A DNA stretch of 64,000 nt from Candidatus Portnoybacteria bacterium RBG_19FT_COMBO_36_7 (GCA_001819495.1 MHMW01000018.1:3322-67321), one strand, 5' to 3'; shown: positions 9,600 through 36,020, counted from the first letter of the stretch. Notes: generated by a model from the letters alone, not told the origin. Made by a program: numbers and translations.

Positions 9600-9741
9600 C
9601 CAGGTAGTAGAAATTCGACTTGATTTTTTAATTATTGCCAGCCCCGTAGTAGAATTTTGACAAGAACGTAGCTCCAATCCCGTAATGAAAAGTCGAAATT
9701 TCACTACGGGGCCAGGCAGCAGTCGAATTTTCACTACCTGG
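9600..9741 (-). mobile_element. element copy A: a 20-bp-TIR element (CCAGGTAGTAGAAATTCGAC / GTCGAATTTTCACTACCTGG) carrying a nested second copy at 9642..9711
   Basis: The outer TIRs are at 9600..9619 and 9722..9741 and are flanked by CAT direct repeats. The inner copy (CCCCGTAGTAGAATTTTGAC...GTCGAAATTTCACTACGGGG) is flanked by CCAG direct repeats at 9638..9641 and 9712..9715. The gene-proximal end abuts the ATG of the anti-sigma-like gene. Confidence 0.7.
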
Positions 9742-9790
9742 CATTCTAATAAATATGACGCGAAAACGCCTTTTTTATTACAGTCAAATA

Positions 9791-9833
9791 GACAAGAAAA
9801 GAAAACGGCGGAGCCGATATCGGCCCTGCCGCC
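9791..9833 (-). terminator. rho-independent terminator after the ECF sigma gene
   Basis: Hairpin GGCGGAGCCGATATCGGCCCTGCCGCC (with an inner 12-nt palindrome) is followed on the minus strand by a U-rich tract. Confidence 0.55.
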
Positions 9834-9888
9834 TTAAATATACGATTTTAGCTTCCCCCTCCACACTAAGCTTGATTTGGGGGCAAAA

Positions 9889-10398
9889 TTAAGCCTCTAA
9901 GGCCTCTCTCAGAGCTTTTATAGCTCTTGATAAGGAAGTCCTGACTGTCCCCTCTGATTTACCTAAAATTTGGGCTATTTCCTCTACCTCAAAGTCGTCT
10001 ACATAATACCAGATAATAATCTCCTGATACTCCTCCCTGATAAGACGGAGATATTCCATTATCCGGTCAATTTTTAAATTTTTATCAGTTTTTTCTTCTA
10101 TGCCCGATTCGGCAATGCCCAAATGTTTTTCGGAAACCTCTTCCAAAGTTATCGGCAAATTAGGATTCTTTCGGAAATAATCGGAAATGAGGTTCCGACA
10201 AATTTGGTAAGTCATTGCCGAAAGATTTCCGATAAAATTTCCTTCTTTCAGGTACTGCCAACCTTTTAAGAACGCTTCGGAGGCAAGATCCTGGGCCACT
10301 TCCTGCGAACCAACCCTAAAATAAACATAGCGATATATCTTCGTTATGTTTTCGTCATAAAACTTAAGAAAATTCTGTTCATTTTCGACTAAACTCAT
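9889..10398 (-). CDS. ECF-type RNA polymerase sigma factor (sigma-70 family, regions 2 and 4)
   Basis: 169 aa with a region-2-like segment (YRYVYFRVGSQEVAQDLASEAFLKGW) and a region-4 HTH (IAQILGKSEGTVRTSLSRAIKALR). Confidence 0.8.
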   Translation of the reverse strand: MSLVENEQNFLKFYDENITKIYRYVYFRVGSQEVAQDLASEAFLKGWQYLKEGNFIGNLSAMTYQICRNLISDYFRKNPNLPITLEEVSEKHLGIAESGIEEKTDKNLKIDRIMEYLRLIREEYQEIIIWYYVDDFEVEEIAQILGKSEGTVRTSLSRAIKALREALEA

Positions 10399-10407
10399 TA
10401 TTATGGG

Positions 10408-11268
10408 CTACTTGCAGTTTTTGGAGATAAACGCCTTAAGGTCATCTTTCAAATCTTGACGGTCAAGAGCATATTTTAGGGTCGCTTTTAAATAATTCAG
10501 CGGATCGCCGGTGGTCAGCCACTCTCCGTCTTCCACTTTTTTAGCATAAAATATATTCCCGCGCTTAACATATGTTTTTATTGCGTCCACGATCCAGAGC
10601 TCATTTCCTTTTCCCAGCGGAGTATCTCTTAAGATATCAATTATTTCCTGGTTCAGGATCATCCGGCCAAAATCGGCATAGCGCGATGGCGCTTCTTTAA
10701 TGCTCGGTTTTTCAATTATATCTTCAATTTCCATAGTTCCCTTTTTAAGCTTTACAATTCCATACCTGACGACATCTTCTTTTGGCACCTCCTGGACGCC
10801 TATTATAGGACAACCATGCTTCTCATAGTCTTTGACCATCTGCTTGGTAAAAGAAACTTTTGACTTGACCAGATCGTCGCCCCAGACAAAAACGAAAGGT
10901 TCGTCATCAACCAGATTGGCGGCGCACAAAACCGGAGTACCGTTGCCGTAAGGACCTTTTTGTCTTATATACACGAAATTGGCCATTTCCGAGATTCTTT
11001 TTACCTGTTGCCAAAGCTTGTCTTTCCCGGCTTTTTTCAGCTCATTGGCCAAGGCCCAGTTGTGATCAAAATGATCCTCAAGGGGCTTTTTATCCCATTT
11101 GGTCACCAAAATTATATCCTCAATCCCGCCCTCAACCAATTCTTCAACAACCAGCTGAATAATCGGCTTGTCCACAATCGGCAGCATCTCTTTAGGCATT
11201 GATTTGGTCGCCGGCAAAAGGCGGGTGCCCGAACCGGCTACCGCCACTACTGCTTTTTTAATTTTCAT
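10408..11268 (-). CDS. galU: UTP--glucose-1-phosphate uridylyltransferase
   Basis: The N-terminal motif AVAGSGTRLLPATKSMPKEMLPIVDKP is present, and the protein is colinear with GalU-type nucleotidyltransferases. Confidence 0.85.
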   Translation of the reverse strand: MKIKKAVVAVAGSGTRLLPATKSMPKEMLPIVDKPIIQLVVEELVEGGIEDIILVTKWDKKPLEDHFDHNWALANELKKAGKDKLWQQVKRISEMANFVYIRQKGPYGNGTPVLCAANLVDDEPFVFVWGDDLVKSKVSFTKQMVKDYEKHGCPIIGVQEVPKEDVVRYGIVKLKKGTMEIEDIIEKPSIKEAPSRYADFGRMILNQEIIDILRDTPLGKGNELWIVDAIKTYVKRGNIFYAKKVEDGEWLTTGDPLNYLKATLKYALDRQDLKDDLKAFISKNCK

Positions 11269-11311
11269 AACTTTTTTTTAATTTCTATTCTAGCTACTGA
11301 AAAATCAATGG

Positions 11312-12001
11312 TTATGCATTTAATAAATACCTGACGCCTCTCCGTCGGCCCACTCTCCTAATAAAGTTTCTGCCCATCAGCACCGCCAAATCATTCCTGA
11401 CCGTTCTATCGCTAACCTTGCCCAAAATATTACGCAGGTCATTTACGGTGGTTTCTTTATTTTTATTGAAATATTCAACGATCTTTTCCTGGCGCAGTTG
11501 TGCTTCACCGATAATAAATCTGATCTCTTTTTCTTTTTCCTCTTTGGGCAAAGATAAGCTTATTTCCGGCGGGGGATTCATGACTGTTTTTTCTCCCCTC
11601 TCGCGGCTTTTTATTGCCCGGCCGGCCAGATCATAGAGAAGCAAAGAATAAGCGGCTATAAGTAAATCAAAGTTTAGCGGCACCAGCCACTTCTGATTTT
11701 TAGCAATTTCCAGATAAATTTTTACTTCTTCTATTTTTAAAATTGTATCACTAATCTTCCCTGTTGCTAAAAAGACCACTATCTTTGATGAGCCCTGCCG
11801 AAGCTGCGAGATAAGCGCTTCGCCAGCCGGAAATAATTTGGTTATCCGATAAATTGCCAGACAAAGTTCAAAAGCCCTCCCTTTGTAACTGTCTAAATTT
11901 TTGCCGCCGTCCTCCGGAAATTCTTGTTCGGCCATACCCGGTATATCAACTTCCAGTGACAAATGCTTTTTGCAAAAACGCTTGTATCGTGGAAGTCGCA
12001 A
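11312..12001 (-). CDS. four-helix-bundle (23S rRNA intervening-sequence protein family) domain fused to a C-terminal DeoR-like winged-helix HTH
   Basis: The middle region (FELCLAIYRITKLFPAGEALISQLRQ) resembles the four-helix-bundle family. The C-terminus (TVNDLRNILGKVSDRTVRNDLAVLM) is HTH-like. The start is uncertain: a TTG at 12001 or the ATG of MAEQEF at about 11937. Confidence 0.45.
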   Translation of the reverse strand: MRLPRYKRFCKKHLSLEVDIPGMAEQEFPEDGGKNLDSYKGRAFELCLAIYRITKLFPAGEALISQLRQGSSKIVVFLATGKISDTILKIEEVKIYLEIAKNQKWLVPLNFDLLIAAYSLLLYDLAGRAIKSRERGEKTVMNPPPEISLSLPKEEKEKEIRFIIGEAQLRQEKIVEYFNKNKETTVNDLRNILGKVSDRTVRNDLAVLMGRNFIRRVGRRRGVRYLLNA

Positions 12002-12440
12002 GCCCAGAAATTTACTTCCTTATAATTGTTTCTGAATTTGTGCTCTTCTTTTAGAAGAATACACCGGAAGTTGTATTACCGGGCATGTTTAATTCATTCT
12101 ATTTGCCAGAAAGCCAGTCTGTCAACATTATAACATTATAAGCCCTCCTTAATAAACTCTAAACAAAATTTAACGGAATAATAAAAGATATAAAAATAAA
12201 AAAAAGCGTCTGAAACAAATAGGGGAGTTCCAATATATTTTTTCGTTTTTGTTTTTTTATAATCTTTAAAACACTTTTCCGATTTTATTTATTGCCGCAA
12301 TTCCCTTTTTTTTCTGATATTATTTTATTGTGCGACATAATATTTACAGGAGAACAAAAGAACTCCCCCTTTAGTTTTTTTGACGTTCTAAATAATTTAT
12401 TTGTCGCCAATATTGTACGACATCTCTTTTCTACAGAAAT

Positions 12441-12466
12441 AAAAAAAGCCGGTTAAGGCATCCGGC
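12441..12466 (-). terminator. rho-independent terminator
   Basis: Hairpin GCCGGTTAAGGCATCCGGC is followed by a U-run on the minus strand, downstream of the gene at 12484..13239. Confidence 0.6.
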
Positions 12467-12483
12467 ATTTATGGCCAAAAAGA

Positions 12484-13239
12484 TTATTTTAATAATTGTT
12501 TTATCTCTGAAGATTTTGTTATTTTTGCCAAGCCTGCGCTGTCGGCCCAGTTCAAGCCGGCTATCTCCCCTTTCAGATTGAATATCGGACAGCCGATAAT
12601 TTCTCTGCCCGAAAAACCGATATCAAAAACAGGAGAAATCTGCCTGACAATATCAAAATCAGCAAATTTATTAAAATCTGGCGATTTTACGCCGATTAAA
12701 AAAAGCTGCTCGCCCAGCCTTGGTTCTTTCTCGGCAAAAGGCAAAACCGGCAGATTGTTTTCGTTTATTTTCAAAACGGCAATTCCGGACGCCTCGTCTG
12801 CTTTTTTAATCTCTGCCTCTATCTGTCTGCTGTTATAGACGACCAGAATTTTTTGAGCCGAATCCGGAATCAAATTTTTGGCCGTAACAATCAAACCGTC
12901 GCTGGAAGCGATAAATCCTGTCCCCTGCGCCAAAATTTCCGGCTTCTCAAGAATAATTTTTTTTCCGGCGGTTATTTTTTCAGTTACCTCCGATATTACC
13001 CCGACAACAACACCGCTGCATTTGTCAATCGCGTCTTCCAACGCTTCATTTTCCGTAATCACCACTCTTTCTGTCCGGTTTATAACGGTCGTGCCTTCGC
13101 CGGCCTGCCTGATCCAGTCAACATTTTTCAAAAATCCGATGCCGGCCAGCCAGGGAAAAAGAAATTGAGAACCCAAAATCCCCCCAACCGCCCCTAAAAC
13201 AAAAATAAGACCGAACTTAATTAATTTATCTTTTATCAT
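12484..13239 (-). CDS. membrane-anchored trypsin-like (HtrA-like) peptidase-fold protein, probably catalytically inactive
   Basis: It has an N-terminal TM helix and an HtrA protease-domain scaffold (GTGFIASSDGLIVTAKN, GIAVLKINENNLPVLPF). The catalytic His and Ser positions are substituted (GCPIF in place of GNSGGP). Confidence 0.5.
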   Translation of the reverse strand: MIKDKLIKFGLIFVLGAVGGILGSQFLFPWLAGIGFLKNVDWIRQAGEGTTVINRTERVVITENEALEDAIDKCSGVVVGVISEVTEKITAGKKIILEKPEILAQGTGFIASSDGLIVTAKNLIPDSAQKILVVYNSRQIEAEIKKADEASGIAVLKINENNLPVLPFAEKEPRLGEQLFLIGVKSPDFNKFADFDIVRQISPVFDIGFSGREIIGCPIFNLKGEIAGLNWADSAGLAKITKSSEIKQLLK

Positions 13240-13254
13240 TGTGTCTCCAATTTT

Positions 13255-15891: not shown

Positions 15892-15922
15892 GTTCGCTTA
15901 CGCTCAAGTTAAAAATTAAAAG

Positions 15923-15939
15923 TGACAACTTTGTTGTCA
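15923..15939. promoter_or_regulatory. inverted repeat TGACAAC-TTT-GTTGTCA in the clpB upstream region (candidate stress-regulon operator)
   Basis: The arms are 7 bp perfect inverted repeats, 32-48 nt upstream of the clpB start. It is embedded in a 180-bp palindrome-rich leader. Confidence 0.3.
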
Positions 15940-17299: not shown

Positions 17300-17707
17300 T
17301 CATTTTTCATTTTTACTTTTTAATTTATTCCTATAGTCTTCTATCGCTTTATGCAAGGCCTGCGCCGCCATGTTTGAACAATGCATCTTAATCGGAGGCA
17401 ATCCGCCCAGTTCCTTAGCCACTGTTTCTCGGTTTAATTCTAAGGCTTCTCTTAAAGTTTTCCCTTTGGCCAATTCTGTAATCATTGAAGAAGTGGCAAT
17501 AGCCGCCGCACAGCCAAAACTTTCAAATTTTATATCATTAATTGTTTCTACGGTTTTTCCTTTTTCATTTTTACTTTTTACTTTTATGTAGAGCGTCATC
17601 CGGTCGCCGCAGACTATATTGCCGATTTTTCCGACTCCATCGGCATCTTTTATAGATCCCATGTTCTTGGGATGCAAAAATTGTTCAAGGACTTTTTTAG
17701 AATACAT
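17300..17707 (-). CDS. iscU: Fe-S cluster assembly scaffold protein (NifU/IscU/SufU type)
   Basis: 135 aa with the conserved Cys motifs GNIVCGDRMTL, FGCAAAIATSS and HCSNMAAQAL. Confidence 0.85.
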   Translation of the reverse strand: MYSKKVLEQFLHPKNMGSIKDADGVGKIGNIVCGDRMTLYIKVKSKNEKGKTVETINDIKFESFGCAAAIATSSMITELAKGKTLREALELNRETVAKELGGLPPIKMHCSNMAAQALHKAIEDYRNKLKSKNEK

Positions 17708-17708
17708 A

Positions 17709-17849
17709 CCAGGTTAGTAGAAATTCGACTTTAAATTTAACATTGCCTGCTAAAGGTAAAATCTTCAATTATACAATGTGCCAAATCGTGAGTTTCTTTT
17801 TGGTTCATTCCGTTAAACGGAATGAACCTGTCTAATTTTCACTACCTGG
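17709..17849 (-). mobile_element. element copy B: a 141-bp variant with the same 20-bp TIRs and a different 101-bp interior
   Basis: TIRs CCAGGTTAGTAGAAATTCGAC and GTCTAATTTTCACTACCTGG are flanked by CATA direct repeats at 17705..17708 and 17850..17853. The interior holds a 12-bp-stem hairpin (17802..17828) and a TATAAT hexamer facing iscU. The element abuts the iscU ATG. Confidence 0.65.
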
Positions 17850-17896
17850 CATATATATTTAACTTAGAAAGAATGAGAAATTAATGAAATTGATTT

Positions 17897-19138
17897 CTAA
17901 CAGCCGAAGTCATCCGGCAATTTCTTTTTGGCTTCTTGGCCCGAGCCGCTTATTTTTCTTAATTTTTCCACGACTTTTGGCAAAACTTCCAAAAATCTAT
18001 CAATTTCCTCATCGCTCGTATATTTTCCCAAGGTAACCCTGATGCTGGTATGCGATTCTTCCAGTTTAAGATCCAAAGCCATTAAAACGTGGGATGGCTG
18101 GAGGTTTTCCGAGGCGCAGGCCGAGCCGGTTGAAACGGCAATTCCCTCCATGTCCAGCGCCATCATAATTGATTCGCCTTCTGCCCCGGGAAAACTAAAA
18201 TTGCAGTTATTTTGCAGGCGTTTTTCCGGCGAGCCGTTCAATTTTGAATTCGGGACATTTTCCAAAACTCCGCTGATTAGTTTATCCCTTAATTTTTTGA
18301 CTCTATCGGCCGTCTCTTTATTTACCATTGAAATCGCTTTTCCCAAGCCGACTATCCCTGCAATATTATAAGTTCCAGCCCGCAAATCGTATTCGTGAGC
18401 TCCTCCGTCCTGAATTTTTTTGACAGGAGTGCCTTTTTTGATATATAGTGCGCCAACCCCCTTGGGTCCGTAAAACTTATGAGCTGACATAGAAAGCAAA
18501 TCAATCCCCAGATCATCAACCTTACAGTTCAAATAATTTATCGCTTGGACCGCGTCGGTGTGAAAATATATCTTCTGCTCGCGCGACTGATTAAGCTTTT
18601 TTATCAATTTTCCGATTTCCTCAATTGGCTGGACTGTCCCGATTTCGTTATTAGCATACATTATAGAAACTAAAACCGTATTCTCTTTTATGACCTTCTC
18701 TAAGCTTGAAACTTCAACTAAGCCTTCTTTGTTGACCGACAAAAACGTAACTTCCGCCAAACCTGATTCTTGCAGGCTCTTGCATGTATCTAATACGCAG
18801 TGGTGCTCAATTTGTGACGTAATTATATGCGGCAAATTTTGACCTTTGACATTTGATTTTTGAATTTTTGTTTTATATACCAATCCTTTTATCGCCAGAT
18901 TATTGCTTTCTGTCGCTCCGCTATTAAAAATAACCTCTTCATTACGGCAGCCCAAAAAATCTGCCACCTGAGCCCTGGCTTTATCAAGGGCTTGCCGAGC
19001 TTTCTGGCCAAACTGATGGGCGCTCGAAGCATTGCCAAAATCTTCGCCAAAATACGGCTTCATCGCCTCAAAAACCTCCTGGTCAAGGGGGGTTGTGGCA
19101 GCGTAATCTAAGTATATTTTTGATTTATTTTCAGTCAT
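17897..19138 (-). CDS. cysteine desulfurase (class V aminotransferase, NifS/IscS-like)
   Basis: 413 aa with IYLDYAATTP and NASSAHQFG motifs and a PLP-lysine region (SMSAHKFYGPKG). Confidence 0.85.
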   Translation of the reverse strand: MTENKSKIYLDYAATTPLDQEVFEAMKPYFGEDFGNASSAHQFGQKARQALDKARAQVADFLGCRNEEVIFNSGATESNNLAIKGLVYKTKIQKSNVKGQNLPHIITSQIEHHCVLDTCKSLQESGLAEVTFLSVNKEGLVEVSSLEKVIKENTVLVSIMYANNEIGTVQPIEEIGKLIKKLNQSREQKIYFHTDAVQAINYLNCKVDDLGIDLLSMSAHKFYGPKGVGALYIKKGTPVKKIQDGGAHEYDLRAGTYNIAGIVGLGKAISMVNKETADRVKKLRDKLISGVLENVPNSKLNGSPEKRLQNNCNFSFPGAEGESIMMALDMEGIAVSTGSACASENLQPSHVLMALDLKLEESHTSIRVTLGKYTSDEEIDRFLEVLPKVVEKLRKISGSGQEAKKKLPDDFGC

Positions 19139-22213: not shown

Positions 22214-23107
22214 TTAAAATGCCAAAATTGCCAAACCTGCGATTATTAATATTATAGCTAAAATTTTCTGCATAAGAATTCCCCGAGTGATTTTTTCCTG
22301 AATTATTTGAGGGAATTTTTTGGAAAGGAAAATCGTTAAAATCAGCAAAAAAGCGTATTGAATTCCCTGCATGGCATTAACCAAAGAAGCGCTGGCTAGA
22401 AAAATTGCATAATTAACAGCGATAGTCCCAATGCCGGCCATTGCCTTATTGGAAACAAAAAGCATGCTTAATCCTGCCGTGGCCTGCCTGCCGCCGGAAA
22501 AAATCGAACGGCGCAGCCTCGGAAAAATCAGAAAGGTTAATGCTGTTAAAAAAATCCCTATCCGAATCCAAATAAATCCGCTGACAAAATTTTGATTAAT
22601 GAAAACATATTTTGTTAAAACAAGTGAAATGGCGGTCAGCAAAATTGAAAAAACAATAAATTTAAATCTTTTTTGCTGTTTCTCTCTGGGCTCTTTTTTA
22701 AAAGAAATCAGCACTCCGCCAAGAACCAAAAGGAGAAAAGCCGCTATTTGCGCCAAGGCGAGCCTCTCGCCCAAAAATAAAAAAGAAAGTCCCAAAACCA
22801 AAATTGGCGTCAGGCCGCCAAAAGAGGGCAGAACGCGCGAAGCTGAACCGATGTCCAGCGCATGAAAAAGATACAAAAAGCCAAAAAGCGTAAATGCACC
22901 GGTCCCAAGCGCGATTAAAAATTGGGTTGTTCCGGGCCAAACCAAGCCAAAAGGGGCCAAAGCCAAGGCAAAAATGCTCAAAAGCCCGACATAAAAAGTG
23001 TAGACTGCCGGCTTGGTCACCGGCCGCTGGCCAAGCAAAAACTTATCCAACACTCCGACAACAGCTATTAAAAAATATCCGGCAATGGCAAATAAAAACC
23101 AGCTCAT
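22214..23107 (-). CDS. EamA/DMT-superfamily transporter
   Basis: 297 aa with about 10 TM helices and two EamA-like halves. Confidence 0.7.
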   Translation of the reverse strand: MSWFLFAIAGYFLIAVVGVLDKFLLGQRPVTKPAVYTFYVGLLSIFALALAPFGLVWPGTTQFLIALGTGAFTLFGFLYLFHALDIGSASRVLPSFGGLTPILVLGLSFLFLGERLALAQIAAFLLLVLGGVLISFKKEPREKQQKRFKFIVFSILLTAISLVLTKYVFINQNFVSGFIWIRIGIFLTALTFLIFPRLRRSIFSGGRQATAGLSMLFVSNKAMAGIGTIAVNYAIFLASASLVNAMQGIQYAFLLILTIFLSKKFPQIIQEKITRGILMQKILAIILIIAGLAILAF

Positions 23108-24342
23108 AAATTTATTGAATTATTTTTACAGATCTTCGCGTATTCCAAGGCACTGGGCCTAATGCGCCGCTCCATGGTTTTGTAGTTAACTTCAACCAAG
23201 CCGAAGCGCGGCCAGAAACCTTTATCCCATTCAAAATTATCCAAAAGAGACCAATGGAAATATCCCTGTATATTGACGCCGCGTTCCAAAGCTCGCGAAA
23301 CCGCTTTTAAAGTTTCTTCAATAAACCATCTTCTATATTTGTCTTCTTTGTCTGCCATGCCGCTTTCAGTTATATAGACCGGCTTATCGTATCTTTTTAA
23401 GTTCGCCAGAACATTTTCTATTCCTTCCGGGTGCGTGTCCCAGCCCACATCGGAAACAACCTCTTTTTTATTTTTATTTATTCCGTAATCTATTCTGTTG
23501 TGGAAATAAAAATTAAGACCTATAAAATCAAGCTGGTGATGAACCCTTCTCAAATATCTATGATTCCAAAATCTTTCAAAAAGAATCTTCAAAATTGCGT
23601 TGACAACTCCTTCCGAAGATTTAAAATCCGAAAGATTGCATACTCCTCCGACCATTGACAGAGGCGTTATTTTTTTGATGGCCCGGTATGCCCTTTTATG
23701 GGCTTTCATCAATGAACGCATTGAGAAATAAAAATTTAAAATCCCTTTTTTTTGAGGAGTCCATCTTCCGCGATAATATGAATTAAGAGAATAAATTTCC
23801 GGCTCGTTTATAGTCAGCCAATATTTGACATCGCGCCCTAAAACTTCAACCATCTTTTTAACGTATTTTTCAAAATATTTCGGGAAATCCGCATTCCTCA
23901 CCCCGCCTTTTTTTGCCAGCCAAATAGGCAATGTCCAATGCCACAAGGTCACAAAGGGTTCCAGTCCTCTCTCTTTTAACGCTTTTATGACCAGCTGATA
24001 GTGCTCTATTTCTCTTTCGTCAAACTTTCCTTCTTCTGGCTCTATGCGGCTCCATTCAATTGAAAAACGATGAGCGTTCTGGCCAAGCTCTTTGACAATA
24101 TCAAAATCCTGCTCAAAACGTTTGTAATGGCCGCAGGCGTGATCTGAAATATAATTTTTGGGCTCAAACATCTCCGGAAATTTTTCCTGCTGCCATTCTT
24201 GAAATTCCATTCTGGTTTCCTTTGCCAGACGATTGGCATTGGTTTTTTCCCATTCTGTCCAGTCGTTAAAATTCCAGCCCTCAACTTGATGAGCCGAGGT
24301 AGCCGCGCCCCATAAAAACCCTGAGGGAAATTTGTATTCCAT
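23104..24342 (-). CDS. glycoside hydrolase family 1 beta-glucosidase
   Basis: It has N-terminal FLWGAATSAHQVEG, TLWHWTLP and ITENG-like (YITESGMA) motifs. Confidence 0.85.
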   Translation of the reverse strand: MEYKFPSGFLWGAATSAHQVEGWNFNDWTEWEKTNANRLAKETRMEFQEWQQEKFPEMFEPKNYISDHACGHYKRFEQDFDIVKELGQNAHRFSIEWSRIEPEEGKFDEREIEHYQLVIKALKERGLEPFVTLWHWTLPIWLAKKGGVRNADFPKYFEKYVKKMVEVLGRDVKYWLTINEPEIYSLNSYYRGRWTPQKKGILNFYFSMRSLMKAHKRAYRAIKKITPLSMVGGVCNLSDFKSSEGVVNAILKILFERFWNHRYLRRVHHQLDFIGLNFYFHNRIDYGINKNKKEVVSDVGWDTHPEGIENVLANLKRYDKPVYITESGMADKEDKYRRWFIEETLKAVSRALERGVNIQGYFHWSLLDNFEWDKGFWPRFGLVEVNYKTMERRIRPSALEYAKICKNNSINL

Positions 24343-24343
24343 A

Positions 24344-24410
24344 CCGGGTAGTAGAAATTCGACAATTACTAGTATCGCTGCCGGGCAGCAGTCGAATTTT
24401 CACTACCCGG
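24344..24410 (-). mobile_element. element copy C: a 67-bp basic unit
   Basis: TIRs CCGGGTAGTAGAAATTCGAC and GTCGAATTTTCACTACCCGG differ from the other copies by a compensatory A/G-T/C change that keeps the pairing. They are flanked by CATA at 24340..24343 and 24411..24414. The left repeat holds the GH1 ATG. Confidence 0.7.
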
Positions 24411-24471
24411 CATATTTTTTATTATACCAAAAAACAGCCGGTTGGGCTGTTTTTTTATACACATCGCTGTT

Positions 24472-27828: not shown

Positions 27829-27898
27829 CTTTGACACTAATTTTATTCTTCCAACATCTGCTGATCAATCAAGGGCTTGCCCTGAGCTTGTCGAAGGG

Positions 27899-27969
27899 CT
27901 GCGGGGCTTGGAATCGAACCAAGATTCCCAGATTCAGAGTCTGGTTGCCTACCTTTAGCAGACCCCGCA
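27899..27969 (-). tRNA. tRNA-Gln (anticodon CUG)
   Basis: Hand-folded cloverleaf: acceptor UGCGGGG/CCCCGCA (U1-A72), anticodon stem CCAGA/UCUGG with loop CUCUGAA, T-arm CUUGG-UUCGAUU-CCAAG, discriminator G. No CCA is encoded. Confidence 0.8.
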
Positions 27970-27982
27970 GTAAACCCCGCAA

Positions 27983-29623: not shown

Positions 29624-29626
29624 TTT

Positions 29627-30725: not shown

Positions 30726-30753
30726 TTACTCTACTAATTATATTATGCCTGTC

Positions 30754-30799
30754 AAAAAAAAACAACAAAAGAGAGCCAGCGGTCCCGCCATTGCGGGAC
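30754..30799 (-). terminator. rho-independent terminator after tRNA-Thr
   Basis: Hairpin GUCCCGCAAUGGCGGGAC is followed by a U-rich tract of 9+ nt on the minus strand. Confidence 0.65.
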
Positions 30800-30829
30800 G
30801 ACCGGAGTTTATCCCGCACCTTTTTGCTG

Positions 30830-30901
30830 AGCCGATGGTCGGGATTGAACCGACAACCTATCGCTTACGAAGCGATTGCTCTACCATTGAGCTACATCGG
30901 C
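30830..30901 (-). tRNA. tRNA-Thr (anticodon CGU)
   Basis: Hand-folded: acceptor GCCGAUG/CAUCGGC, D-arm GCUC-AAUGGUA-GAGC, anticodon stem AUCGC/GCGAU with loop UUCGUAA, T-arm GUCGG-UUCAAUC-CCGAC, discriminator U. No CCA is encoded. Confidence 0.85.
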
Positions 30902-31016
30902 ATAAAGGTGCAGGGCTGCCGACTGAGCTACGCTGGCGATACACTTTTCAACCTATCATAAAACGTACCTCTTGTGAACTACTTGACAAGATTTTTAGAA
31001 CTGATAAACTGACCTT

Positions 31017-31041
31017 ATACCTATACCATAGGTATAGGTAT
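31017..31041. promoter_or_regulatory. candidate CsoR operator: a 10-5-10 perfect inverted repeat
   Basis: ATACCTATAC-CATAG-GTATAGGTAT overlaps a TATAAT hexamer 22 nt upstream of csoR. The TACC...GGTA arms resemble known CsoR boxes. Confidence 0.5.
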
Positions 31042-31063
31042 AATAATTTTTAATAAAACTTTT

Positions 31064-31333
31064 ATGAAAGACAAACAAGACGCTTTAGTAAATTTCAAAA
31101 AGGCCCACAGTCATCTGGCCAATCTTATCAAGATGACCGAGCAGGGCGAATACTGCATCAACATTATGCAGCAGAACCTGGCTGTCATCGGGCTTTTGAA
31201 ATCAGCCCATCAGATGCTGATGGAAAATCATTTAAACACCTGCTTCAAAACCGCGATGTCAACAAAGAACGAAAAAAGAAAGCAGGAGATGACGCAGGAA
31301 ATTTTGGGCGTCACAAGACTTTTTAATAAATAA
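31064..31333 (+). CDS. csoR: CsoR/RcnR-family metal-sensing transcriptional repressor
   Basis: 89 aa, all-helical, with conserved Cys and His ligands (EYCINI, NHLNTC). It is the first gene of a copper-handling operon. Confidence 0.75.
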   Translation: MKDKQDALVNFKKAHSHLANLIKMTEQGEYCINIMQQNLAVIGLLKSAHQMLMENHLNTCFKTAMSTKNEKRKQEMTQEILGVTRLFNK

Positions 31334-31337
31334 AAAA

Positions 31338-32726
31338 ATGGACAATAAAATAAAAGAATTTACTTATGCCGTCCGCGGCATGCACTGCGCCTCCTGCGAA
31401 ATTCTGATAGAGAAAAAACTGCTGGAGCTGCCGCAGATAAAATCGGCCGACGCCTCAAACCCAAGGGGCCGGGTGACCATAGAATACGAAAACCAGAGGC
31501 CTTCTGCCAAAGAACTTTCGGCGATGTTTGAAAAAGAAAACTACGAATTTTTTGAAACATCCCAGAAAAAAGAGGAAAATCCGCCATCAAATAATCTGGC
31601 TAAATCCTTTCTTGTGGCTCTGGTTTTAATCGCCAGCTTCCTGGCGCTCAATAAGCTCGGCCTCTCAAAATTGATTAACGTCAACTCCGCCTCTTCCCTG
31701 CCGACATTCTTTGTCTTCGGCCTGCTGGCGGGTGTATCTTCCTGCGCCGCGCTGGTTGGCGGAATAATTCTTTCTATGTCAAAGCAATGGATGGCGCTTT
31801 ATTCCGCAAATGATTCGCTTCTTGTCAAATCGCGGCCGCACGTCATGTTCAACATCGGCCGCCTATTCTCTTATTTTGTTTTGGGGGGGATGCTCGGCCT
31901 CGTCGGCCAAAAACTCCATCTATCCCTAACTTTTTCATCGGTTCTGGTCATTGCTATCTCTGTCATTATGGTGTTTTTGGCTCTACAGATGATCGGCGTC
32001 AAGTATTTCAAACAGTTCCAGTTCGCTCTGCCAAAATCGCTCACCAGATACATCGCCGACACGTCAAATTTCAAAGGCCGCTGGATGCCGACTTTATTGG
32101 GTGCCTTAACTTTTTTTCTCCCATGCGGATTCACCATCACAGCCCAGGGGCTGGCTCTGCTTTCAGGAAATTTTTTCCAGGGCGGCATGATCATGTTTTT
32201 TTTCGCTCTGGGAACGTTATTTCCCCTGCTTGCTATCGGGCTTTCAAGCGTCAAATTTTCTTCAAGCCATCATATATCAAACCAGTTTTTAAAAGTGGCC
32301 GGGCTGGTCGTCTTATTCTTTGCTGTTTTTAACATCAATTCGCAATTGAATGTTTTTGGCTTCAACGGATTTAGTGATTTGGTTTCTGGCGCCGCGCAAA
32401 AAAATCCAGTCAATCAGCAAAATGATCTGCCGCCGATAGTGGAAGGCAAACAAATCCTTAAAATGAATGCCTCATCTTCCGGATACAGCCCCAGGACCCT
32501 GAAAGTCAGAGTCGGCGTGCCTGTTCGCTGGGAAATCACCGATATTGGAACAAGCGGCTGCACCAACGCAATAATTTCACGAAATTTATTCAGCGGACAA
32601 ATCAATTTGACGCCAGGCCGGACCAGCATTAAAGAATTCACTCCGCAAAAAGTGGGACAATACAGATTTTCCTGCTGGATGGGCATGGTGACAGGCGTCA
32701 TTGAAGTTATCGACAATAATTCATAA
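31338..32726 (+). CDS. heavy-metal-associated (HMA) domain membrane protein with a CcdA/TauE-like permease core and a C-terminal cupredoxin-like domain
   Basis: It has an N-terminal MHCASCE HMA fold, six to eight TM helices with Cys in GVSSCAAL and FFLPCGF, and a C-terminal beta domain with a [16 protein letters not shown] plastocyanin-like ligand loop. Confidence 0.5.
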
Positions 32727-32740
32727 TTCAGTGCAAAATT

Positions 32741-35017
32741 ATGGCCAATAAAATTATCCTGAAAATTTCTGGCATGCACTGTGCTTCCTGCGCTGCCAAC
32801 ATCGAACGCGCCCTGACAAAAGAAAAAGGTATCGTATCGGCTAATGTCAATTATGCTAACGAAAAAGCTTATCTGGAATTTAATCCGCAACAATCCTCCA
32901 TTGAAAGAATTAAGAAAGTTATTAAAGATACCGGCTACGCGGCAAACGAAGAATCTCGCGATATGACCATAGCCGGCCACCACGACCATCAAAAAGAAGC
33001 ATCCTTGAAAGAAATGACAAGTCTTAAAAAGCGCTTCTTTTATTCGCTCGTTCTGGGCCTGCCGGTTATTTACGCGGTTATGGGCGGACTGGCCGGCCTG
33101 CCTCTGCCTGAATTTTTTGAAAAATACGGCATGCCCATCCAATTTCTGCTTTCTACTGCGGTTATTCTGACCTGTTTTAACATCTGGACTTCGGGATTTA
33201 AAAGCCTTATCAAACTACGGCCAAATATGGATTCTCTGATATTTGTCGGCACGGCGGCCGCTTATTTTTACAGCTCTGCGCTTTTCGCTCAGACACTTTT
33301 TGGTGCAAAAATCGGAATGGAAAATCTCTATTTTGAAAGCGCGATTTTTATTTTAATCTTCATTTCCCTGGGCAAATATCTGGAAGCGATAACAAAAGGA
33401 AGAACATCCGAAGCGATAAAAAAACTGATAGGCCTGGCGCCAAAAGAAGCGACGATTATAAAAAATGGGCAGGAAGCGAGAATTCCGATTGCCGAGGTTC
33501 GCGAAGGCGATATAATTTTGGTGCGGCCCGGTGAAAAAATCCCGGTTGATGGCGTTGTTGTTGAGGGCTACTCGGCCGTTGACGAAAAAACCATTACCGG
33601 CGAAAGCATCCCGGTTGAGAAAAAAGAAGGCTCGCAAGTTATCGGCGCCACCATCAATAAAACCGGCTCATTTCGATTCCGGGCAACAAAAATCGGCAGT
33701 CAAACAATGCTAGCCCAGATAATAAAAATAGTTGAAGAGGCGATGGGTTCAAAAGCATCCATTCAGCTTATGGCCGATAGAGTATCCTTATATTTTGTGC
33801 CTGCGGTTATTACGATAGCCATTTTATCTTCTGCTATCTGGCTTTTTTTTGGATACCAGTTTGCATTTGTGTTAACAATCTTTGTTTCAGTGCTCATCAT
33901 CGCCTGCCCCTGCGCGCTGGGGCTGGCCACGCCGACAGCCATTATGGTCGGCTCGGGCCTGGCAGCGCAGCGCGGCATTTTAATAAAAACTGGAGATGCC
34001 TTAGAAATAGCCCGAAAAGTGAATTTTGTAGTCTTTGACAAAACCGGCACGCTGACCAGCGGCGAGCCGTCAGTAACTGATGTTTTAGGTGAAGGACAGA
34101 ATGAAATTTTACAGCTAGCCGCTTCAATTGAAAAAAAATCAGAGCATCCTCTGGCGCAAGCGATTGTAAAAAAAGCGGAGCAGGATAATATAGCGATAAA
34201 AAATGCCACTGATTTTGAAGCTGTCCCGGGCAAAGGAGTAAAAGCGAAAATTGACGGGCAAGAAATCCTATTTGGGACCCGTAAATTAATGGCTGAAAAT
34301 AATATCAAAATCGATTCTACGGAAAACGATATGATCGCTTTAGAAGATAACGGCAAAACAGTCATGATCCTGGCGGCCGATAGCAAAATTGTCGGCTTGA
34401 TCGCGGTGGCTGATACGCTCAAAGAATATTCTCAAGAAGCGATAGATATTTTGCATAAAATGGGCAAAAAAGTCGCTATGCTAACCGGCGATAATAAACG
34501 CGTCGGCCAGGCAATCGCCAAACAAGTCGGCATAGATTATGTAATTGCAGAAGTTCTACCTCAAAATAAAGCAAAGGTTATTAAAGATTTACAGGCAGGA
34601 AATCAAATTGGAAATTGGAAATTGGAAATTGGAAATTCCCGCCAGGGGCGGGTGGTGGCTATGGTCGGCGACGGCATTAACGACGCGCCGGCTCTCGCCC
34701 AAGCTGACCTTGGCATCGCTTTGGGTTCGGGCACTGATGTGGCCATGGAAACCGGCCAGATAGTTTTGATCAAAGACGACCTCCGCGATGTGGTGACAGC
34801 AATAGACCTGAGCAAATACACTATCAAAAAAATTAAACAGAATCTTTTCTGGGCGTTCATCTATAATGTCGTGGGAATACCGATTGCCGCAGGTATCCTC
34901 TTCCCTTTCACCGGATGGCTCATGAGCCCGACAATTGCAGCCGCTGCCATGGCTTTCTCCTCAGTATCAGTCGTCTCAAATTCGCTTCTGATGCGGACAT
35001 ACAGGCCAAAAATCTAA
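32741..35017 (+). CDS. copA: copper-translocating P1B-type ATPase
   Basis: It has an N-terminal HMA ([12 protein letters not shown]), a CPC motif ([10 protein letters not shown]), DKTGTLT and GDGINDAP. It also contains an in-frame 15-aa low-complexity insert encoded by a heptamer repeat. Confidence 0.9.
34598..34639 (+). repeat. 7-bp tandem repeat (AAATTGG, four perfect copies plus imperfect flanking copies) inside copA
   Basis: The repeat is GGAAATC AAATTGG AAATTGG AAATTGG AAATTGG AAATTCC. It encodes [13 protein letters not shown] between the hinge region and the GDGINDAP motif. Confidence 0.8.
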
Positions 35018-35043
35018 TCAACCAAAAACGCCCCACAAGGGCG

Positions 35044-35072
35044 TTTTTTTATTTGACCTCGGTTCTTCCTAA
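35044..35072 (+). terminator. rho-independent terminator of the copper operon
   Basis: Hairpin AACGCCCCACAAGGGCGTT is followed by TTTTTTT. Confidence 0.75.
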
Positions 35073-35381
35073 AAGGAATACAGCAATATAAAAGTAATTA
35101 TAGTAACGATGAATAAACAGCCGACGGTGTAGGCAAGCAATGTAATCGCGTCCGATTTTTTGCCGTCCAGATAAAGCAATATCGGCCGACCAAGGATCAG
35201 CGCTCCGACAATTGTGGCCGAAATTACGAATAAAAGCAACAGCGCCACTGGCATCCAGAAACTTTCTGCCTTGCCGAAAAACTTTTCACCGTTAAACATC
35301 AGCCACGCCACGCCCGAAATATAAACGAACGCGGCCAGCGAATTAATGATGCTCCAAGATAATATTTTTGAGTTTTTCATA
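35069..35381 (-). CDS. small integral membrane protein (hypothetical)
   Basis: The start is placed at MKNSKILSWS, with three TM helices. The ORF-track N-terminal extension would overlap the tRNA-Gly gene and is rejected. Confidence 0.45.
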
Positions 35382-35402
35382 ATTTTATTATTAATGATTA
35401 TG

Positions 35403-35473
35403 AGCGGGATACGGGAATCGGACCCGTCTCTCGACCTTGGGAAGGTCGCATAATACCGATATACTAATCCCGC
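35403..35473 (-). tRNA. tRNA-Gly (anticodon CCC)
   Basis: Hand-folded: acceptor GCGGGAU/AUCCCGC, anticodon stem CGACC/GGUCG with loop UUCCCAA, T-arm ACGGG-UCCGAUU-CCCGU, discriminator U. Confidence 0.75.
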
Positions 35474-35503
35474 ACTTCGCCCCACAGACGGGCTCAGTAT
35501 AAA

Positions 35504-35926
35504 CTATCGGAAGAAAAACTTCCACCACTTTGAAAAATTAGATTCCATTTTTTTGACTGCCGAGGCCGGCAAAATATCTTTATTTTCCTCTTTTTGCGGC
35601 TGTGAATTTTGAGTAGCTAACGAATCTTTAAGCGGCTCGATTATCACCACTTCCTCCCCCGGTTTTTTCATATTTAATTTTTCCCTCGCTTCTTTTTCCA
35701 AAAAACTCTGACTGTCCAGATAATCTATCATTTCCGATATCTGCTGGTTAGATCTTTCCGCATTGCCAATCTGGGCTTTCAAATTATCGATTTCTTTGTT
35801 AATTTTATATTTCCTGTAATAGACATTGACCACGCTTAAAACCAGCCAAATAAAACCGAGCAATAGAAAAAACAGCGTTATCCGCGAACTTAATATTTTT
35901 TTTATTTTTGCGCCTTGCTCTGCCAT
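35504..35926 (-). CDS. FtsB/DivIC-like septum formation initiator (single TM plus coiled coil)
   Basis: 140 aa with an N-terminal TM helix (FFLLLGFIWLVLSVV), followed by a coiled coil with an EIDNLKAQ heptad pattern. Confidence 0.55.
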   Translation of the reverse strand: MAEQGAKIKKILSSRITLFFLLLGFIWLVLSVVNVYYRKYKINKEIDNLKAQIGNAERSNQQISEMIDYLDSQSFLEKEAREKLNMKKPGEEVVIIEPLKDSLATQNSQPQKEENKDILPASAVKKMESNFSKWWKFFFR

Positions 35927-35952
35927 AAAAATATTGATATACTCAAAATATG

Positions 35953-36020
35953 CCAGGTAGTGAAAATTCGACTGCTGCCCGGCAACAAATCCTAAATTAT
36001 GTCGAATTTCTACTACCTGG
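35953..36020 (+). mobile_element. element copy D: a 68-bp basic unit in inverse orientation
   Basis: TIRs CCAGGTAGTGAAAATTCGAC and GTCGAATTTCTACTACCTGG are flanked by TATG direct repeats at 35949..35952 and 36021..36024. The interior (TGCTGCCCGGCAACAAATCC...) is homologous to copy C. The gene-proximal end abuts the ATG of a small plus-strand ORF. Confidence 0.7.

What the first reader, a model, noticed from the sequence alone, without database searches (positions are those of the whole stretch)
9600..36020. A family of small 20-bp-TIR elements whose copies all sit directly against gene start codons
Four copies lie at 9600..9741, 17709..17849, 24344..24410 and 35953..36020. They share near-perfect 20-bp terminal inverted repeats, CC(A/G)GGTAGTAGAAATTCGAC and GTCGAATTTTCACTACC(T/C)GG. 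Each is flanked by 3-4-bp direct repeats (CATA, CATA, CAT, and TATG, which is CATA on the other strand), consistent with target-site duplications. A compensatory change (CCAGG/CCTGG to CCGGG/CCCGG) keeps the TIR pairing intact in copy C. Copies C and D share interior sequence (TGCTGCCCGGCA...). No transposase gene is in the window, so these behave like MITEs. In every copy the same end (GTCGAATTTCTACTACCYGG) is followed within 0-1 nt by the ATG of a gene reading away from the element: the anti-sigma-like gene, iscU, the GH1 beta-glucosidase and a 32-aa micropeptide. The start codon itself forms part of the flanking direct repeat. Four out of four insertions falling at (T)ATG start codons is very unlikely for random targeting of a 4-bp site. 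Either the element targets start codons, or it is kept there because it supplies a 5' UTR or promoter. Each copy has an AT-rich TAnnnT-like box 5-8 nt before the gene-proximal TIR and no Shine-Dalgarno sequence.
Basis: seen in the sequence. Interest (0 to 1): 0.85.

Follow-up and report, generated by a model that had tools for sequence, protein, structure and literature searches.

The report
Tiny start-codon-seeking mobile DNA hairpins
The four small inverted-repeat elements are real, and they are stripped-down copies of an apparently undescribed, roughly 315-base mobile element of ultra-small (CPR/Patescibacteria) bacteria that carries only an 88-residue GIY-YIG nuclease gene and inserts almost always exactly at the ATG start codon of a host gene, duplicating that ATG so the gene survives.

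Summary
Four elements (67-142 nt) have 20-nt complementary arms, each flanked by CAT(A)/(T)ATG repeats and each abutting an ATG. Copy A also contains a nested fifth copy.

The window comes from Candidatus Portnoybacteria. The same arms occur in many Patescibacteria genomes. Of 134 distinct insertion sites, 66 are flanked TATG|element|TATG. 93 sites abut an ATG that opens an ORF of at least 50 codons. The null share is about 19% (p about 1e-23).

The new result is a long form of 311-333 nt, found at 54 distinct sites. It has the same arms and the same flanks, and it holds a single 87-91-codon ORF. That ORF is a GIY-YIG nuclease of the UPF0213/Slx1 type, with dN/dS of 0.085. Two copies that are 99.7% identical sit at unrelated genes. 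Orthologous GH1 genes in relatives lack the element.

The window copies are therefore MITE-like derivatives. The arms covary throughout but always keep a tandem G·T/A·C mismatch, which suggests recognition of a hairpin or cruciform.

Best model: a nuclease-driven, directional insertion at (T)ATG with a 3-4-bp duplication. The nuclease's role is inferred, not shown. I found no promoter in the element. I found no prior description in the searchable literature.

The parts
9600..9741 (-). Copy A, 142 nt, composite. The outer arms are at 9722-9741 (distal, CCAGGTAGTGAAAATTCGAC on the - strand) and 9600-9619 (proximal, GTCGAATTTCTACTACCTGG on the - strand). It abuts the ATG (9599-9597, - strand) of the anti-sigma-like gene 8400-9599, downstream of the ECF sigma gene 9889-10398.
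9642..9711 (-). A 70-nt copy nested inside copy A. Its arms are CCCCGTAGTGAAATTTCGAC ... GTCAAAATTCTACTACGGGG. It is flanked by a CCAG/CCAG duplication (9638-9641 and 9712-9715). The same nested arrangement occurs in L101 from another Portnoybacteria genome.
9597..9599 (-). Proximal copy of the duplicated ATG of copy A, which is the start codon of the anti-sigma-like gene. The distal copy is at 9742-9744.
17709..17849 (-). Copy B, 141 nt, lying between iscS (17897-19138) and iscU (17300-17707). Its arms are decaying: the distal arm reads ...AAAATTAGAC and the proximal arm has a 1-nt insertion (CTACTAACCTGG). The CATA duplication is at 17705-17708 and 17850-17853. Sibling strains L214 and L215 carry the same copy.
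24344..24410 (-). Copy C, a 67-nt short form with CCGGG/CCCGG termini. The CATA duplication is at 24340-24343 and 24411-24414. It abuts the ATG of the GH1 beta-glucosidase gene (23104-24342). A TATAAT box lies 7 nt upstream of the distal ATG.
35953..36020 (+). Copy D, a 68-nt short form. The TATG duplication is at 35949-35952 and 36021-36024. It abuts the ATG (36022) of a 32-codon hydrophobic ORF (36022-36120), which is not verified as a gene.

Best explanation
The four window elements are non-autonomous, MITE-like derivatives of a very small selfish DNA element of Patescibacteria.

The full-length form is 311-333 bp. It consists only of two complementary 20-bp arms and one 87-91-codon gene for a GIY-YIG nuclease of the UPF0213/Slx1 type. 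The gene's ATG lies about 7 nt after the 5' arm, and its stop codon overlaps the first base of the 3' arm.

The element integrates in one fixed orientation at 5'-(T)ATG-3' and duplicates 3-4 bp. One ATG therefore stays in front of the host ORF, so the gene remains intact. The other ATG ends up in front of the element.

Shown here:
- The short, middle and long forms share the same arms and flanks.
- An intermediate exists that keeps the 3' end of the nuclease gene.
- The flanking repeats are true target-site duplications.
- Orthologous sites in relatives are empty.
- Near-identical copies sit at unrelated genes.
- The nuclease gene and the arms are under purifying selection.

Inferred:
- (i) The nuclease is the mobilising enzyme. 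It recognises the arms as a hairpin or cruciform carrying a fixed tandem G·T/A·C mismatch, and it makes staggered cuts at (T)ATG in both donor and target. That would explain the duplication and the fixed orientation.
- (ii) The start-codon bias is TATG specificity combined with selection. Only at a start codon does an insertion leave the coding sequence intact while placing a nuclease gene that has no evident promoter or Shine-Dalgarno of its own directly behind a host promoter and start codon.
- (iii) In the window copies, which have no nuclease gene, the element is a passive 5' hairpin (-31 to -63 kcal/mol) that partly pairs with the host AUG. The short reading frame from the distal AUG (MPGSENST...) ends inside the element. 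Its translation may open the stem and couple translation to the host AUG.
For: Anatomy and spread:
- A scan of one genome per species with a 16-mer from the arm returned dozens of paired copies in Parcubacteria, Portnoy-, Yanofsky-, Nealson-, Lipton- and Sungiibacteria MAGs. One genome has at least 13 copies and another at least 9.
- The long form has identical boundaries in L106 and L112 and in L120-129. Of 80 metagenome loci fetched with the nuclease protein, 71 have both arms, giving 54 distinct sites.
- The 125-nt copy in L012 retains the last ~20 codons of the nuclease gene at 86-90% amino-acid identity.

The nuclease:
- Pfam GIY-YIG, E = 1e-15 to 2e-17.
- 951 homologues at E <= 1e-10. 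Many were called with the N-terminus MPGSENST, which is the 5' arm read from the distal ATG.
- Median dN/dS of 0.085 at dS of about 1.7.
- An AF2 model with pLDDT 84.5. The best structural matches are UPF0213 BH0048, then the Slx1 structure-specific nuclease. I-TevI and UvrC match much more weakly.

Target:
- Of 134 unique sites, 90 have identical 4-mers on both sides and 66 are TATG/TATG. 93 abut an ATG with an ORF of at least 50 codons, against a null share of 0.19 (p = 6e-24).
- For the long form the duplication reads TATG in the sense of the nuclease gene 29 times and CATA 0 times.
- T at -1 occurs in 87% of occupied starts and 44% of ordinary starts.

Mobility:
- The elements in L150 and L152 are 99.7% identical over 324 nt, but their flanks and host genes are unrelated (IscU-like versus a membrane protein).
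- Nested and tandem copies occur.
- GH1 orthologues L130, L131 and L132 are empty, while L133 and the window are occupied.

Arms:
- Compensatory pairs occur at positions 1-6 and 14-20. Positions 10-11 are G·T plus A·C (either order) in 38 of 40 distinct arm pairs.
Against: - There is no biochemical or genetic evidence that an 88-residue GIY-YIG domain can excise and integrate DNA. GIY-YIG enzymes are hydrolytic nucleases with no known strand-transfer or ligation activity, so host repair or ligation would be needed.
- No nuclease gene lies in the window. Whether the window's genome has one elsewhere is unknown.
- The reading frame from the distal ATG into the nuclease gene is kept in 28 of 37 copies. 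Among copies with spacer indels it is kept in only 3 of 10, which is no better than chance. Start-codon capture for translation is therefore not demonstrated.
- The null model for TATG sites rests on crude ORF calls.
- My sampling of short and middle forms required one exact arm 16-mer, which biases it towards intact arms.
- The empty GH1 sites come from relatives at only 82-83% protein identity, so the duplication is inferred from non-identical flanks.
- Most middle-size copies have interiors that I could not align to the nuclease gene. Their derivation from the long form rests on the shared arms and on one clear intermediate.
Confidence: 0.68

Rival explanations
1. These are ordinary MITEs mobilised in trans by a conventional transposase (DDE or similar) encoded elsewhere. 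The GIY-YIG gene of the long form is only cargo, or a separate gene that happens to be bracketed.
For: No nuclease gene lies in the window. GIY-YIG nucleases are not a known transposase class (established knowledge). Six GIY loci lack arms of their own.
Against: - Of 80 loci fetched through the nuclease protein alone, 71 have both arms at fixed distances: about 7 nt before the ATG, with the stop codon overlapping the 3' arm.
- The long form has room for nothing else.
- No pair of arms more than 333 nt apart enclosing a larger gene was seen among 175 elements.
- The nuclease gene is under strong purifying selection while moving between sites.
Confidence: 0.12
2. The elements move by an IS200/IS605- or REPIN/RAYT-like single-strand mechanism. 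A Y1 HUH transposase would recognise the folded hairpin and insert 3' of a tetranucleotide, and the apparent duplication would be the element's own cleavage site.
For: The arms behave as a hairpin with covariation. They contain GTAG, the conserved REP tetranucleotide (from my own knowledge). Orientation relative to an asymmetric 4-nt target is fixed. The middle-size copies contain degenerate inner arm copies that could form separate left and right hairpins.
Against: When the target is not TATG, the same odd sequence appears on both sides (ACG, CCCA, TGAA, GTG, TGGA). That is a real duplication, which IS200/IS605 elements do not make. No Y1 transposase gene was seen between or beside the arms. 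The only gene ever enclosed is the GIY-YIG gene.
Confidence: 0.08
3. The hairpins are host regulatory RNA or DNA structures, acting in translation control, RNase III processing or attenuation. On this view they are conserved at start codons by selection for function and are not (or no longer) mobile.
For: - The folds are very stable (z = -7.5 to -8.6) and partly sequester the host AUG.
- The arms stay near-perfect while interiors diverge.
- Copies persist at the same gene in diverged strains (L149/L159; L214/L215).
- IscU is hit independently in the window and in L150.
Against: - The host genes are unrelated.
- There are target duplications, nested and tandem insertions, presence/absence differences among orthologues, and a nuclease-coding form with the same ends.
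- There is no Rfam match.
- Copy B accumulates substitutions inside the element, including the arms, while its flanks are identical.

Domestication of individual copies is not excluded.
Confidence: 0.07
4. This is a free-standing GIY-YIG homing endonuclease gene spreading only by intronless homing between alleles of the same locus. On this view the short copies are in-situ deletion remnants rather than transposed units.
For: GIY-YIG is a classic homing-endonuclease fold. The gene sits between host genes like the T4 seg genes (from my own knowledge). Some sites are inherited vertically (L149/L159).
Against: - At least 134 different sites were found, with many per genome.
- Short forms with the same interior (TGCTGCCYGGCAGC) sit at different genes in different genomes, so they moved as short forms.
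- A 3-4-bp duplication and inverted arms are not features of homing.
- Identical elements sit in unrelated flanks.
Confidence: 0.05

Closest known systems
Bacterial MITEs (e.g. Correia elements of Neisseria, RUP, Rickettsia palindromic elements)
   Same: They are small (67-157 nt), non-coding, multi-copy and bounded by inverted repeats. They have short target duplications, can fold into hairpins in transcripts, and share their ends with a coding parent element.
   Different: The parent here is not an IS with a DDE transposase. It is a ~315-bp unit whose only gene is an 88-residue GIY-YIG nuclease. The target is the asymmetric (T)ATG, orientation is fixed, and about 70% of copies sit exactly on start codons. 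The arms vary by compensatory change, so pairing rather than sequence is conserved at many positions.
Free-standing GIY-YIG homing endonuclease genes (phage T4 seg genes; I-TevI family)
   Same: A selfish GIY-YIG nuclease gene wedged between host genes and expressed from host signals.
   Different: Homing endonucleases have an added DNA-binding domain and no inverted arms. They make no target duplication, have one cognate site per genome, and leave no MITE derivatives. The structural match to I-TevI is weak (E above 1), whereas the matches to UPF0213 and Slx1 are E = 5e-4 to 1e-2.
UPF0213/COG2827 proteins (BH0048, PDB 1zg2; E. coli YhbQ) and the nuclease domain of eukaryotic Slx1
   Same: These are the best sequence and fold matches. 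Like this protein, UPF0213 members are stand-alone GIY-YIG domains of about 90-100 residues. Slx1 cuts branched and stem-loop DNA, which fits arms that behave as a structure.
   Different: As far as I know and could search, those proteins are not reported as parts of mobile elements bounded by repeats. Slx1 needs Slx4 and has a RING domain.
REPIN/RAYT and IS200/IS605 PATE elements
   Same: They are hairpin-forming non-autonomous repeats with a GTAG-containing arm, pairing conserved by covariation, and insertion polarity relative to a short asymmetric target.
   Different: They are mobilised by Y1 HUH transposases and make no target duplication. REPINs sit mostly at gene 3' ends. Here duplications are real and the associated gene is GIY-YIG.
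Split ribosome-binding sites and bypassed hairpins (T4 genes 38/25; T4 gene 60 and mitochondrial byp elements)
   Same: A stable hairpin placed at the translation start or take-off point, with identical codons on both sides. The hairpin may be tolerated because folding or translation makes it functionally invisible.
   Different: This is only an analogy for how host genes might tolerate the insert. No evidence here bears on hopping or shunting.

Membership tests
MITE (miniature inverted-repeat transposable element) | Terminal inverted repeats | tested here: met
   20-nt arms; 8 matches in the window against 0 in shuffles; pairing statistics.
MITE (miniature inverted-repeat transposable element) | Target-site duplication | tested here: met
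   90 of 134 sites have identical 4-mers on both sides, including non-ATG targets. Orthologous GH1 sites are empty.
MITE (miniature inverted-repeat transposable element) | Small, non-coding and multi-copy within genomes | tested here: met
   66-157 nt; 5 copies in the 64 kb window; at least 13 and at least 9 copies in two MAGs.
MITE (miniature inverted-repeat transposable element) | Shares its ends with an autonomous coding element | tested here: met
   The long form has the same arms and flanks. L012 is an intermediate. Autonomy of the long form is inferred, not shown.
MITE (miniature inverted-repeat transposable element) | Evidence of recent movement | tested here: met
   For the long form, 99.7% identical copies sit in unrelated flanks. 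For short forms, the evidence is nested and tandem copies and a shared interior at different genes.
GIY-YIG nuclease superfamily (protein of the long form) | Pfam PF01541 domain above the gathering score, with catalytic residues retained | tested here: met
   58-63.5 bits against a cut-off of 22.6. Y6, G19, R27, H31 and E63 are invariant and Y17 is at least 90% conserved. Their catalytic role is assigned from my own knowledge of I-TevI. The fold matches UPF0213 and Slx1.
Homing endonuclease gene (free-standing) | A single cognate site per genome, spread by repair from a homologous allele, with no terminal repeats and no duplication | tested here: not met
   More than 100 different sites, inverted arms and 3-4-bp duplications.
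IS200/IS605 or REPIN-RAYT | An associated Y1 HUH transposase | tested here: not met
   The only gene ever found between the arms is GIY-YIG. Whole genomes were not searched for RAYT genes.
IS200/IS605 or REPIN-RAYT | Insertion without target duplication | tested here: not met
   Rare non-ATG targets are repeated on both sides.
Known structured RNA family (Rfam) | A match at the gathering score | tested here: not met
   Only RNase P and three tRNAs were found in the window.
Insertion sequence with a transposase of a known catalytic class (DDE, DEDD, HUH, Ser or Tyr recombinase, Cas1) | Encodes such an enzyme | tested here: not met
   Pfam, NCBIfam and PADLOC give only GIY-YIG-type hits.
Nuclease-driven transposition by the GIY-YIG protein | The protein cuts at the arm/TATG junctions and mobilises the element | not testable with these tools
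   Needs biochemistry or genetics.

The most novel reading that the evidence does not exclude
The ~315-bp long form is an autonomous DNA transposon whose only protein, an 88-residue Slx1/UPF0213-like GIY-YIG nuclease, acts as the transposase. That would make it a new catalytic class of prokaryotic transposon and the smallest autonomous one known. It would recognise its own ends as a mismatched hairpin or cruciform and make 3-4-nt staggered cuts at (T)ATG. By landing on start codons it would borrow the host promoter and, in many copies, the host's own AUG, possibly as the 5'-terminal AUG of leaderless mRNAs. It would also hand the host gene a fresh ATG.
Probability: 0.45. Interest if true: 0.95.

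Novelty: categorically new. Interest (0 to 1): 0.88.

Why it matters
If the model holds, four things follow.

- It adds a new enzyme class to the short list of ways DNA transposes, and it lowers the size limit for an autonomous mobile element to about 0.3 kb.
- It shows a parasite strategy not described before, as far as I know or could find. The element inserts on the start codon and duplicates it. This makes the insertion harmless to the coding sequence and guarantees that the parasite is transcribed.
- It has practical consequences for annotating Patescibacteria genomes. Public gene calls already run into these elements. Examples are the 444-aa call for the anti-sigma gene in this window, the 472-aa GH1 in L133, and hundreds of nuclease entries beginning MPGSENST.
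- Stable hairpins placed directly on start codons in genomes poor in Shine-Dalgarno sequences give a natural experiment on how these little-studied bacteria initiate translation.

Tried and rejected
- **Chance.** Rejected: 0 matches in shuffles, and the pattern repeats across genomes.
- **Known RNA family.** No Rfam hit on the elements.
- **Promoter carried by the element.** No sense-strand sigma-70-like site inside copies A-C. The AT-rich box sits where the long form has the nuclease gene's Lys-rich end and stop codon.
- **Selection for the reading frame from the captured ATG.** I first took the in-frame MPGSENST extension as evidence of start-codon capture, including codon-sized indels in P0043 and P0086. 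Counting all spacer-length variants gave 3 in frame against 7 out of frame, so that evidence does not hold.
- **Orientation marker.** The GA/CT asymmetry of the arms is not a reliable polarity mark. Five long forms carry the AG/TC arrangement, and the four 'antisense' short copies are of that type.
- **Empty sites in sibling strains.** The exact-protein look-up for IscU found two siblings, both occupied. Look-ups for the anti-sigma protein and the FtsB-like neighbour found nothing.
- **Larger autonomous element.** No arm pair encloses more than the GIY-YIG gene.
- **Defence-system or curated NCBI family.** Nothing above cut-off.
- **Literature.** Eight searches found no description. They covered the arm sequences and MPGSENST, GIY-YIG with MITE/TIR/TSD/CPR, and UPF0213/COG2827/YhbQ. 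The one Patescibacteria paper that mentions GIY-YIG does so only in a list of transferred genes. The library lacks most subscription journals, so absence is not proof.

Full report
**1.

Reading the four regions shows 20-nt arms. In the direction of the abutting gene they read CCAGGTAGTGAAAATTCGAC ... GTCGAATTTCTACTACCTGG. A search with the proximal arm and up to 3 mismatches finds exactly eight matches, two for each of four elements. A hundred dinucleotide-preserving shuffles gave none.

The flanks are CAT/CAT for copy A, CATA/CATA for B and C, and TATG/TATG for D. In each case the ATG next to the same arm opens an ORF:
- anti-sigma-like, 399 aa
- IscU, 135 aa
- GH1, 412 aa
- a 32-codon hydrophobic ORF, which I could not verify as a gene.

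Copy A also contains a nested 70-nt copy at 9642-9711. It has CCCCG/CGGGG termini and its own CCAG duplication. Profile HMMs built from many copies detect nothing else in the window.

The window comes from Candidatus Portnoybacteria bacterium RBG_19FT_COMBO_36_7, since its GH1 protein is 100% identical to P0121. Copy B lies within the iscS-iscU pair. Copy A lies 144 nt downstream of the ECF sigma gene, at the start of the anti-sigma-like gene.

**2. The family is widespread, and the start-codon pattern is general.**

Most paired hits are Patescibacteria MAGs. Single hits in other phyla are what a 16-mer would give by chance in 596 Gb.

I pooled these loci with the loci fetched later and de-duplicated by flanks, which gives 134 distinct sites.
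- 90 have the same 4-mer on both sides, and 66 are TATG/TATG.
- 93 abut an ATG followed by at least 50 codons, and 79 abut one followed by at least 100 codons.

The same 721 kb contains TATG/CATA sites outside long ORFs. Of these, 179 are first-ATG starts and 748 are not. The null share is therefore about 0.19, and the binomial p is 6e-24. It is still 7e-6 against a generous null of 0.40.

The unused distal copy of the duplication is nearly as conserved as the start codon itself (T .80, A .93, T .98, G .93). T at -1 occurs in 87% of occupied starts but only 44% of ordinary starts. The preference for T-A-T-G is therefore a property of the element, not of start sites.

Rare copies at other sequences carry matching repeats (ACG, CCCA, TGAA, GTG, TGGA). 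The repeats are thus true target duplications of 3-4 bp.

**3. Empty sites.**

I compared GH1 orthologues from relatives.
- At 83% protein identity (L131, L132) the sequence reads tataataaaaatatcaatATGGAATAT, with no element.
- At 82% (L130) there is also no element, but there is a tandem ATGATG.
- At 85% (L133) a 66-nt copy sits at the same ATG.

Relative to its relatives, the window's copy C is therefore an insertion exactly at the start codon with one extra (T)ATG. Sibling strains with an identical IscU protein (L214, L215) both carry copy B. They have 0-3 substitutions inside the element and none in the flanks.

**4. The parent element.**

Two 'long' arm pairs in the first scan (L106, 322 nt; L112, 314 nt) enclose one ORF. 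That ORF is a GIY-YIG domain protein (PF01541, E = 1e-15 to 2e-17).

A protein search gave 951 homologues at E <= 1e-10. The top 120 are 73-100% identical. The few that carry source names are named Patescibacteria, and most of the rest come from unnamed metagenome sequence. Their lengths are bimodal. The longer class begins MPGSENSTxI-MFYYVY, which is the distal ATG plus the 5' arm read in frame.

Fetching DNA for 80 relatives from metagenomes shows both arms in 71 of them, at 54 distinct sites. The layout is constant: TATG | 5' arm | about 7 nt | ATG, 87-91 codons, stop (TAG or TAA) overlapping the first base of the 3' arm | 3' arm | TATG host gene.
- 42 of the 54 sites abut a host ATG with an ORF.
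- The duplication reads TATG in the sense of the nuclease gene 29 times and CATA never.

The 125-nt copy in L012 still holds the last ~20 codons of the nuclease gene. It links the long forms to the shorter ones.

Short forms share an interior motif next to the 5' arm (TGCTGCCYGGCAGC) across genomes. The middle forms of one genome share their own interior hairpin. The non-coding forms have therefore spread as such.

**5. Evidence of function and mobility.**

The nuclease gene evolves under strong purifying selection, with a median dN/dS of 0.085 at a dS of about 1.7 across 342 pairs. Y6, G19, R27, H31 and E63 are invariant and Y17 is at least 90% conserved. By my own knowledge of I-TevI these correspond to the GIY-YIG catalytic positions.

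The elements in L150 and L152 are 99.7% identical over 324 nt, yet they sit in unrelated flanks. One is in front of an IscU-like gene and the other in front of a membrane-protein gene. In both cases the element is in tandem with a short copy.

Tandem arrays at one start codon are expected, because every insertion creates a new TATG. They occur in L150, L152, L158 and L164.

**6. The arms behave as a structure.**

Among 40 distinct arm pairs, positions 1-6 and 14-20 show two or three different Watson-Crick pair types, which are compensatory changes. Positions 10-11 form G·T plus A·C in either order in 38 of the 40, and neither position is Watson-Crick in 39 of them.

The AF2 model of the nuclease has pLDDT 84.5. 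It matches UPF0213 BH0048 and then Slx1, the structure-specific nuclease solved with 5'-flap and branched DNA. The matches to I-TevI and UvrC are far weaker.

This is the basis for inferring that the enzyme recognises a hairpin or cruciform. It is an inference only.

**7. How the pattern is best explained.**

What is shown:
- specificity for (T)ATG
- fixed polarity
- a real 3-4-bp duplication
- a nuclease gene with no evident promoter or Shine-Dalgarno of its own

I infer a nuclease that makes staggered cuts at (T)ATG next to its folded ends and at target sites. Host ligation or repair would complete the reaction. A non-palindromic overhang would fix the orientation.

Selection would then remove insertions inside coding sequence. 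In the sampled DNA, 3423 of 4350 TATG sites lie inside coding sequence. Insertions at start codons would be favoured, because there the duplicated ATG keeps the host ORF whole and the element is certain to be transcribed.

I cannot separate intrinsic targeting of start regions from this selective filter. The flanks beyond TATG show only the A/T-richness typical of start regions.

The frame from the distal ATG into the nuclease gene is open in 28 of 37 copies. Among spacer-length variants it is kept only 3 times in 10. Translation from the captured ATG is therefore possible but not demonstrated.

**8. What the window copies do now.**

They encode nothing. Folded as RNA in the gene's sense they are very stable (-31 to -63 kcal/mol, z = -7.5 to -8.6). 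The stem extends into the flanking AUG/UAU, so the host AUG is partly paired.

For GH1 (TATAAT) and for the 32-codon ORF next to copy D (TATACT), a -10-like box lies 6-7 nt upstream of the distal ATG. That suggests originally leaderless mRNAs.

In 35 of 38 cases with a distal ATG, the short frame MPGSENST... stops inside the element. Its translation could open the hairpin and allow re-initiation at the host AUG. This step is speculative.

No sense-strand promoter-like site lies inside copies A-C. The lack of Shine-Dalgarno motifs holds generally in these genomes (12% of ordinary starts).

**9. Comparison with known systems, and novelty.**

The window copies meet every MITE criterion. The parent meets the criteria of neither a known IS class, a homing endonuclease gene, nor an IS200/IS605 or REPIN system (see the membership table).

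Eight literature searches and one paper check found no description of these arms. They also found none of GIY-YIG genes bounded by inverted repeats with target duplications in bacteria, and none of start-codon-specific insertion. The searchable library is incomplete, so prior description in a subscription journal cannot be excluded.

**10. Verdict.**

The underlying system appears to be a previously undescribed kind of mobile element. My confidence that the window copies are derivatives of the GIY-YIG element inserted at (T)ATG is high. My confidence that the GIY-YIG protein itself is the mobilising enzyme is moderate.

Noticed in passing
L135, L172, L188, L193, L203 (e.g. L188 1472-1798): A subfamily with CCGGG...AACTCGAC arms sits at TGGA, two codons before the stop of a gene with dockerin-like repeats (...DFSIMMYWWTG*). 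The start of the arm (CCGGGTAG) recreates the last two codons and a stop, so the host protein is unchanged.
   Followed up: partly
L115 5720-6130: A distant GIY-YIG paralogue (~35% identity) lies beside a tRNA-Met gene. The tRNA 5' half is duplicated and the duplication ends at the anticodon, which with the next base reads CATA, the complement of TATG. It looks like a different insertion mode for a related nuclease gene.
   Followed up: no
L133 150-460: This GH1 orthologue carries the short element at its ATG. About 27 nt into the gene there is a second, decayed arm-like insert (GCCCCGTAGGAAAATC...), followed by a second copy of the gene's N-terminal codons. The public gene call (472 aa) starts at the distal ATG and reads through the element.
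   Followed up: no
L130 around 1501: An empty GH1 orthologue starts ATGATGGAATAC, a tandem ATG. This could be a footprint of an excised element or just a natural variant.
   Followed up: no
L168, L176, L196, L198, L199, L205: Six nuclease genes of the same family lack arms of their own. At least five of them lie just downstream of a short element's 3' arm followed by TGGA/GTGGAC. They may be decayed or rearranged copies.
   Followed up: no
window 8400-9734 (- strand): The longest ORF for the anti-sigma-like gene runs 45 codons upstream into copy A from a GTG inside the distal arm. The 399-aa version is not on record in the public protein collection, so annotation pipelines probably call the extended form.
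   Followed up: partly
window 24415-24470 and 35927-35949: TATAAT or TATACT boxes lie 6-7 nt upstream of the distal ATG of copies C and D. SD-like motifs occur at only 12% of ordinary starts in these genomes. Together these suggest that leaderless or SD-independent initiation is common here.
   Followed up: partly
window 3197-3319, 34601-34637, 57925-57954, 60165-60197: A second, unrelated repeat family of tandem heptamers (AATTGGA / AATTGAA types) appears at four or more places in both orientations (D13, I10, I12, I17, I18).
   Followed up: no
window 50510-50881: Bacterial RNase P RNA class A (127.5 bits). tRNA-Gln, tRNA-Thr and tRNA-Gly lie at 27896-27970, 30829-30901 and 35402-35473.
   Followed up: no
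window copy B versus L150: The iscU start codon is occupied in the window by a 141-nt copy. In an unrelated metagenome contig it is occupied by a tandem array of a short copy and a long form. The same housekeeping gene appears to have been hit independently.
   Followed up: partly
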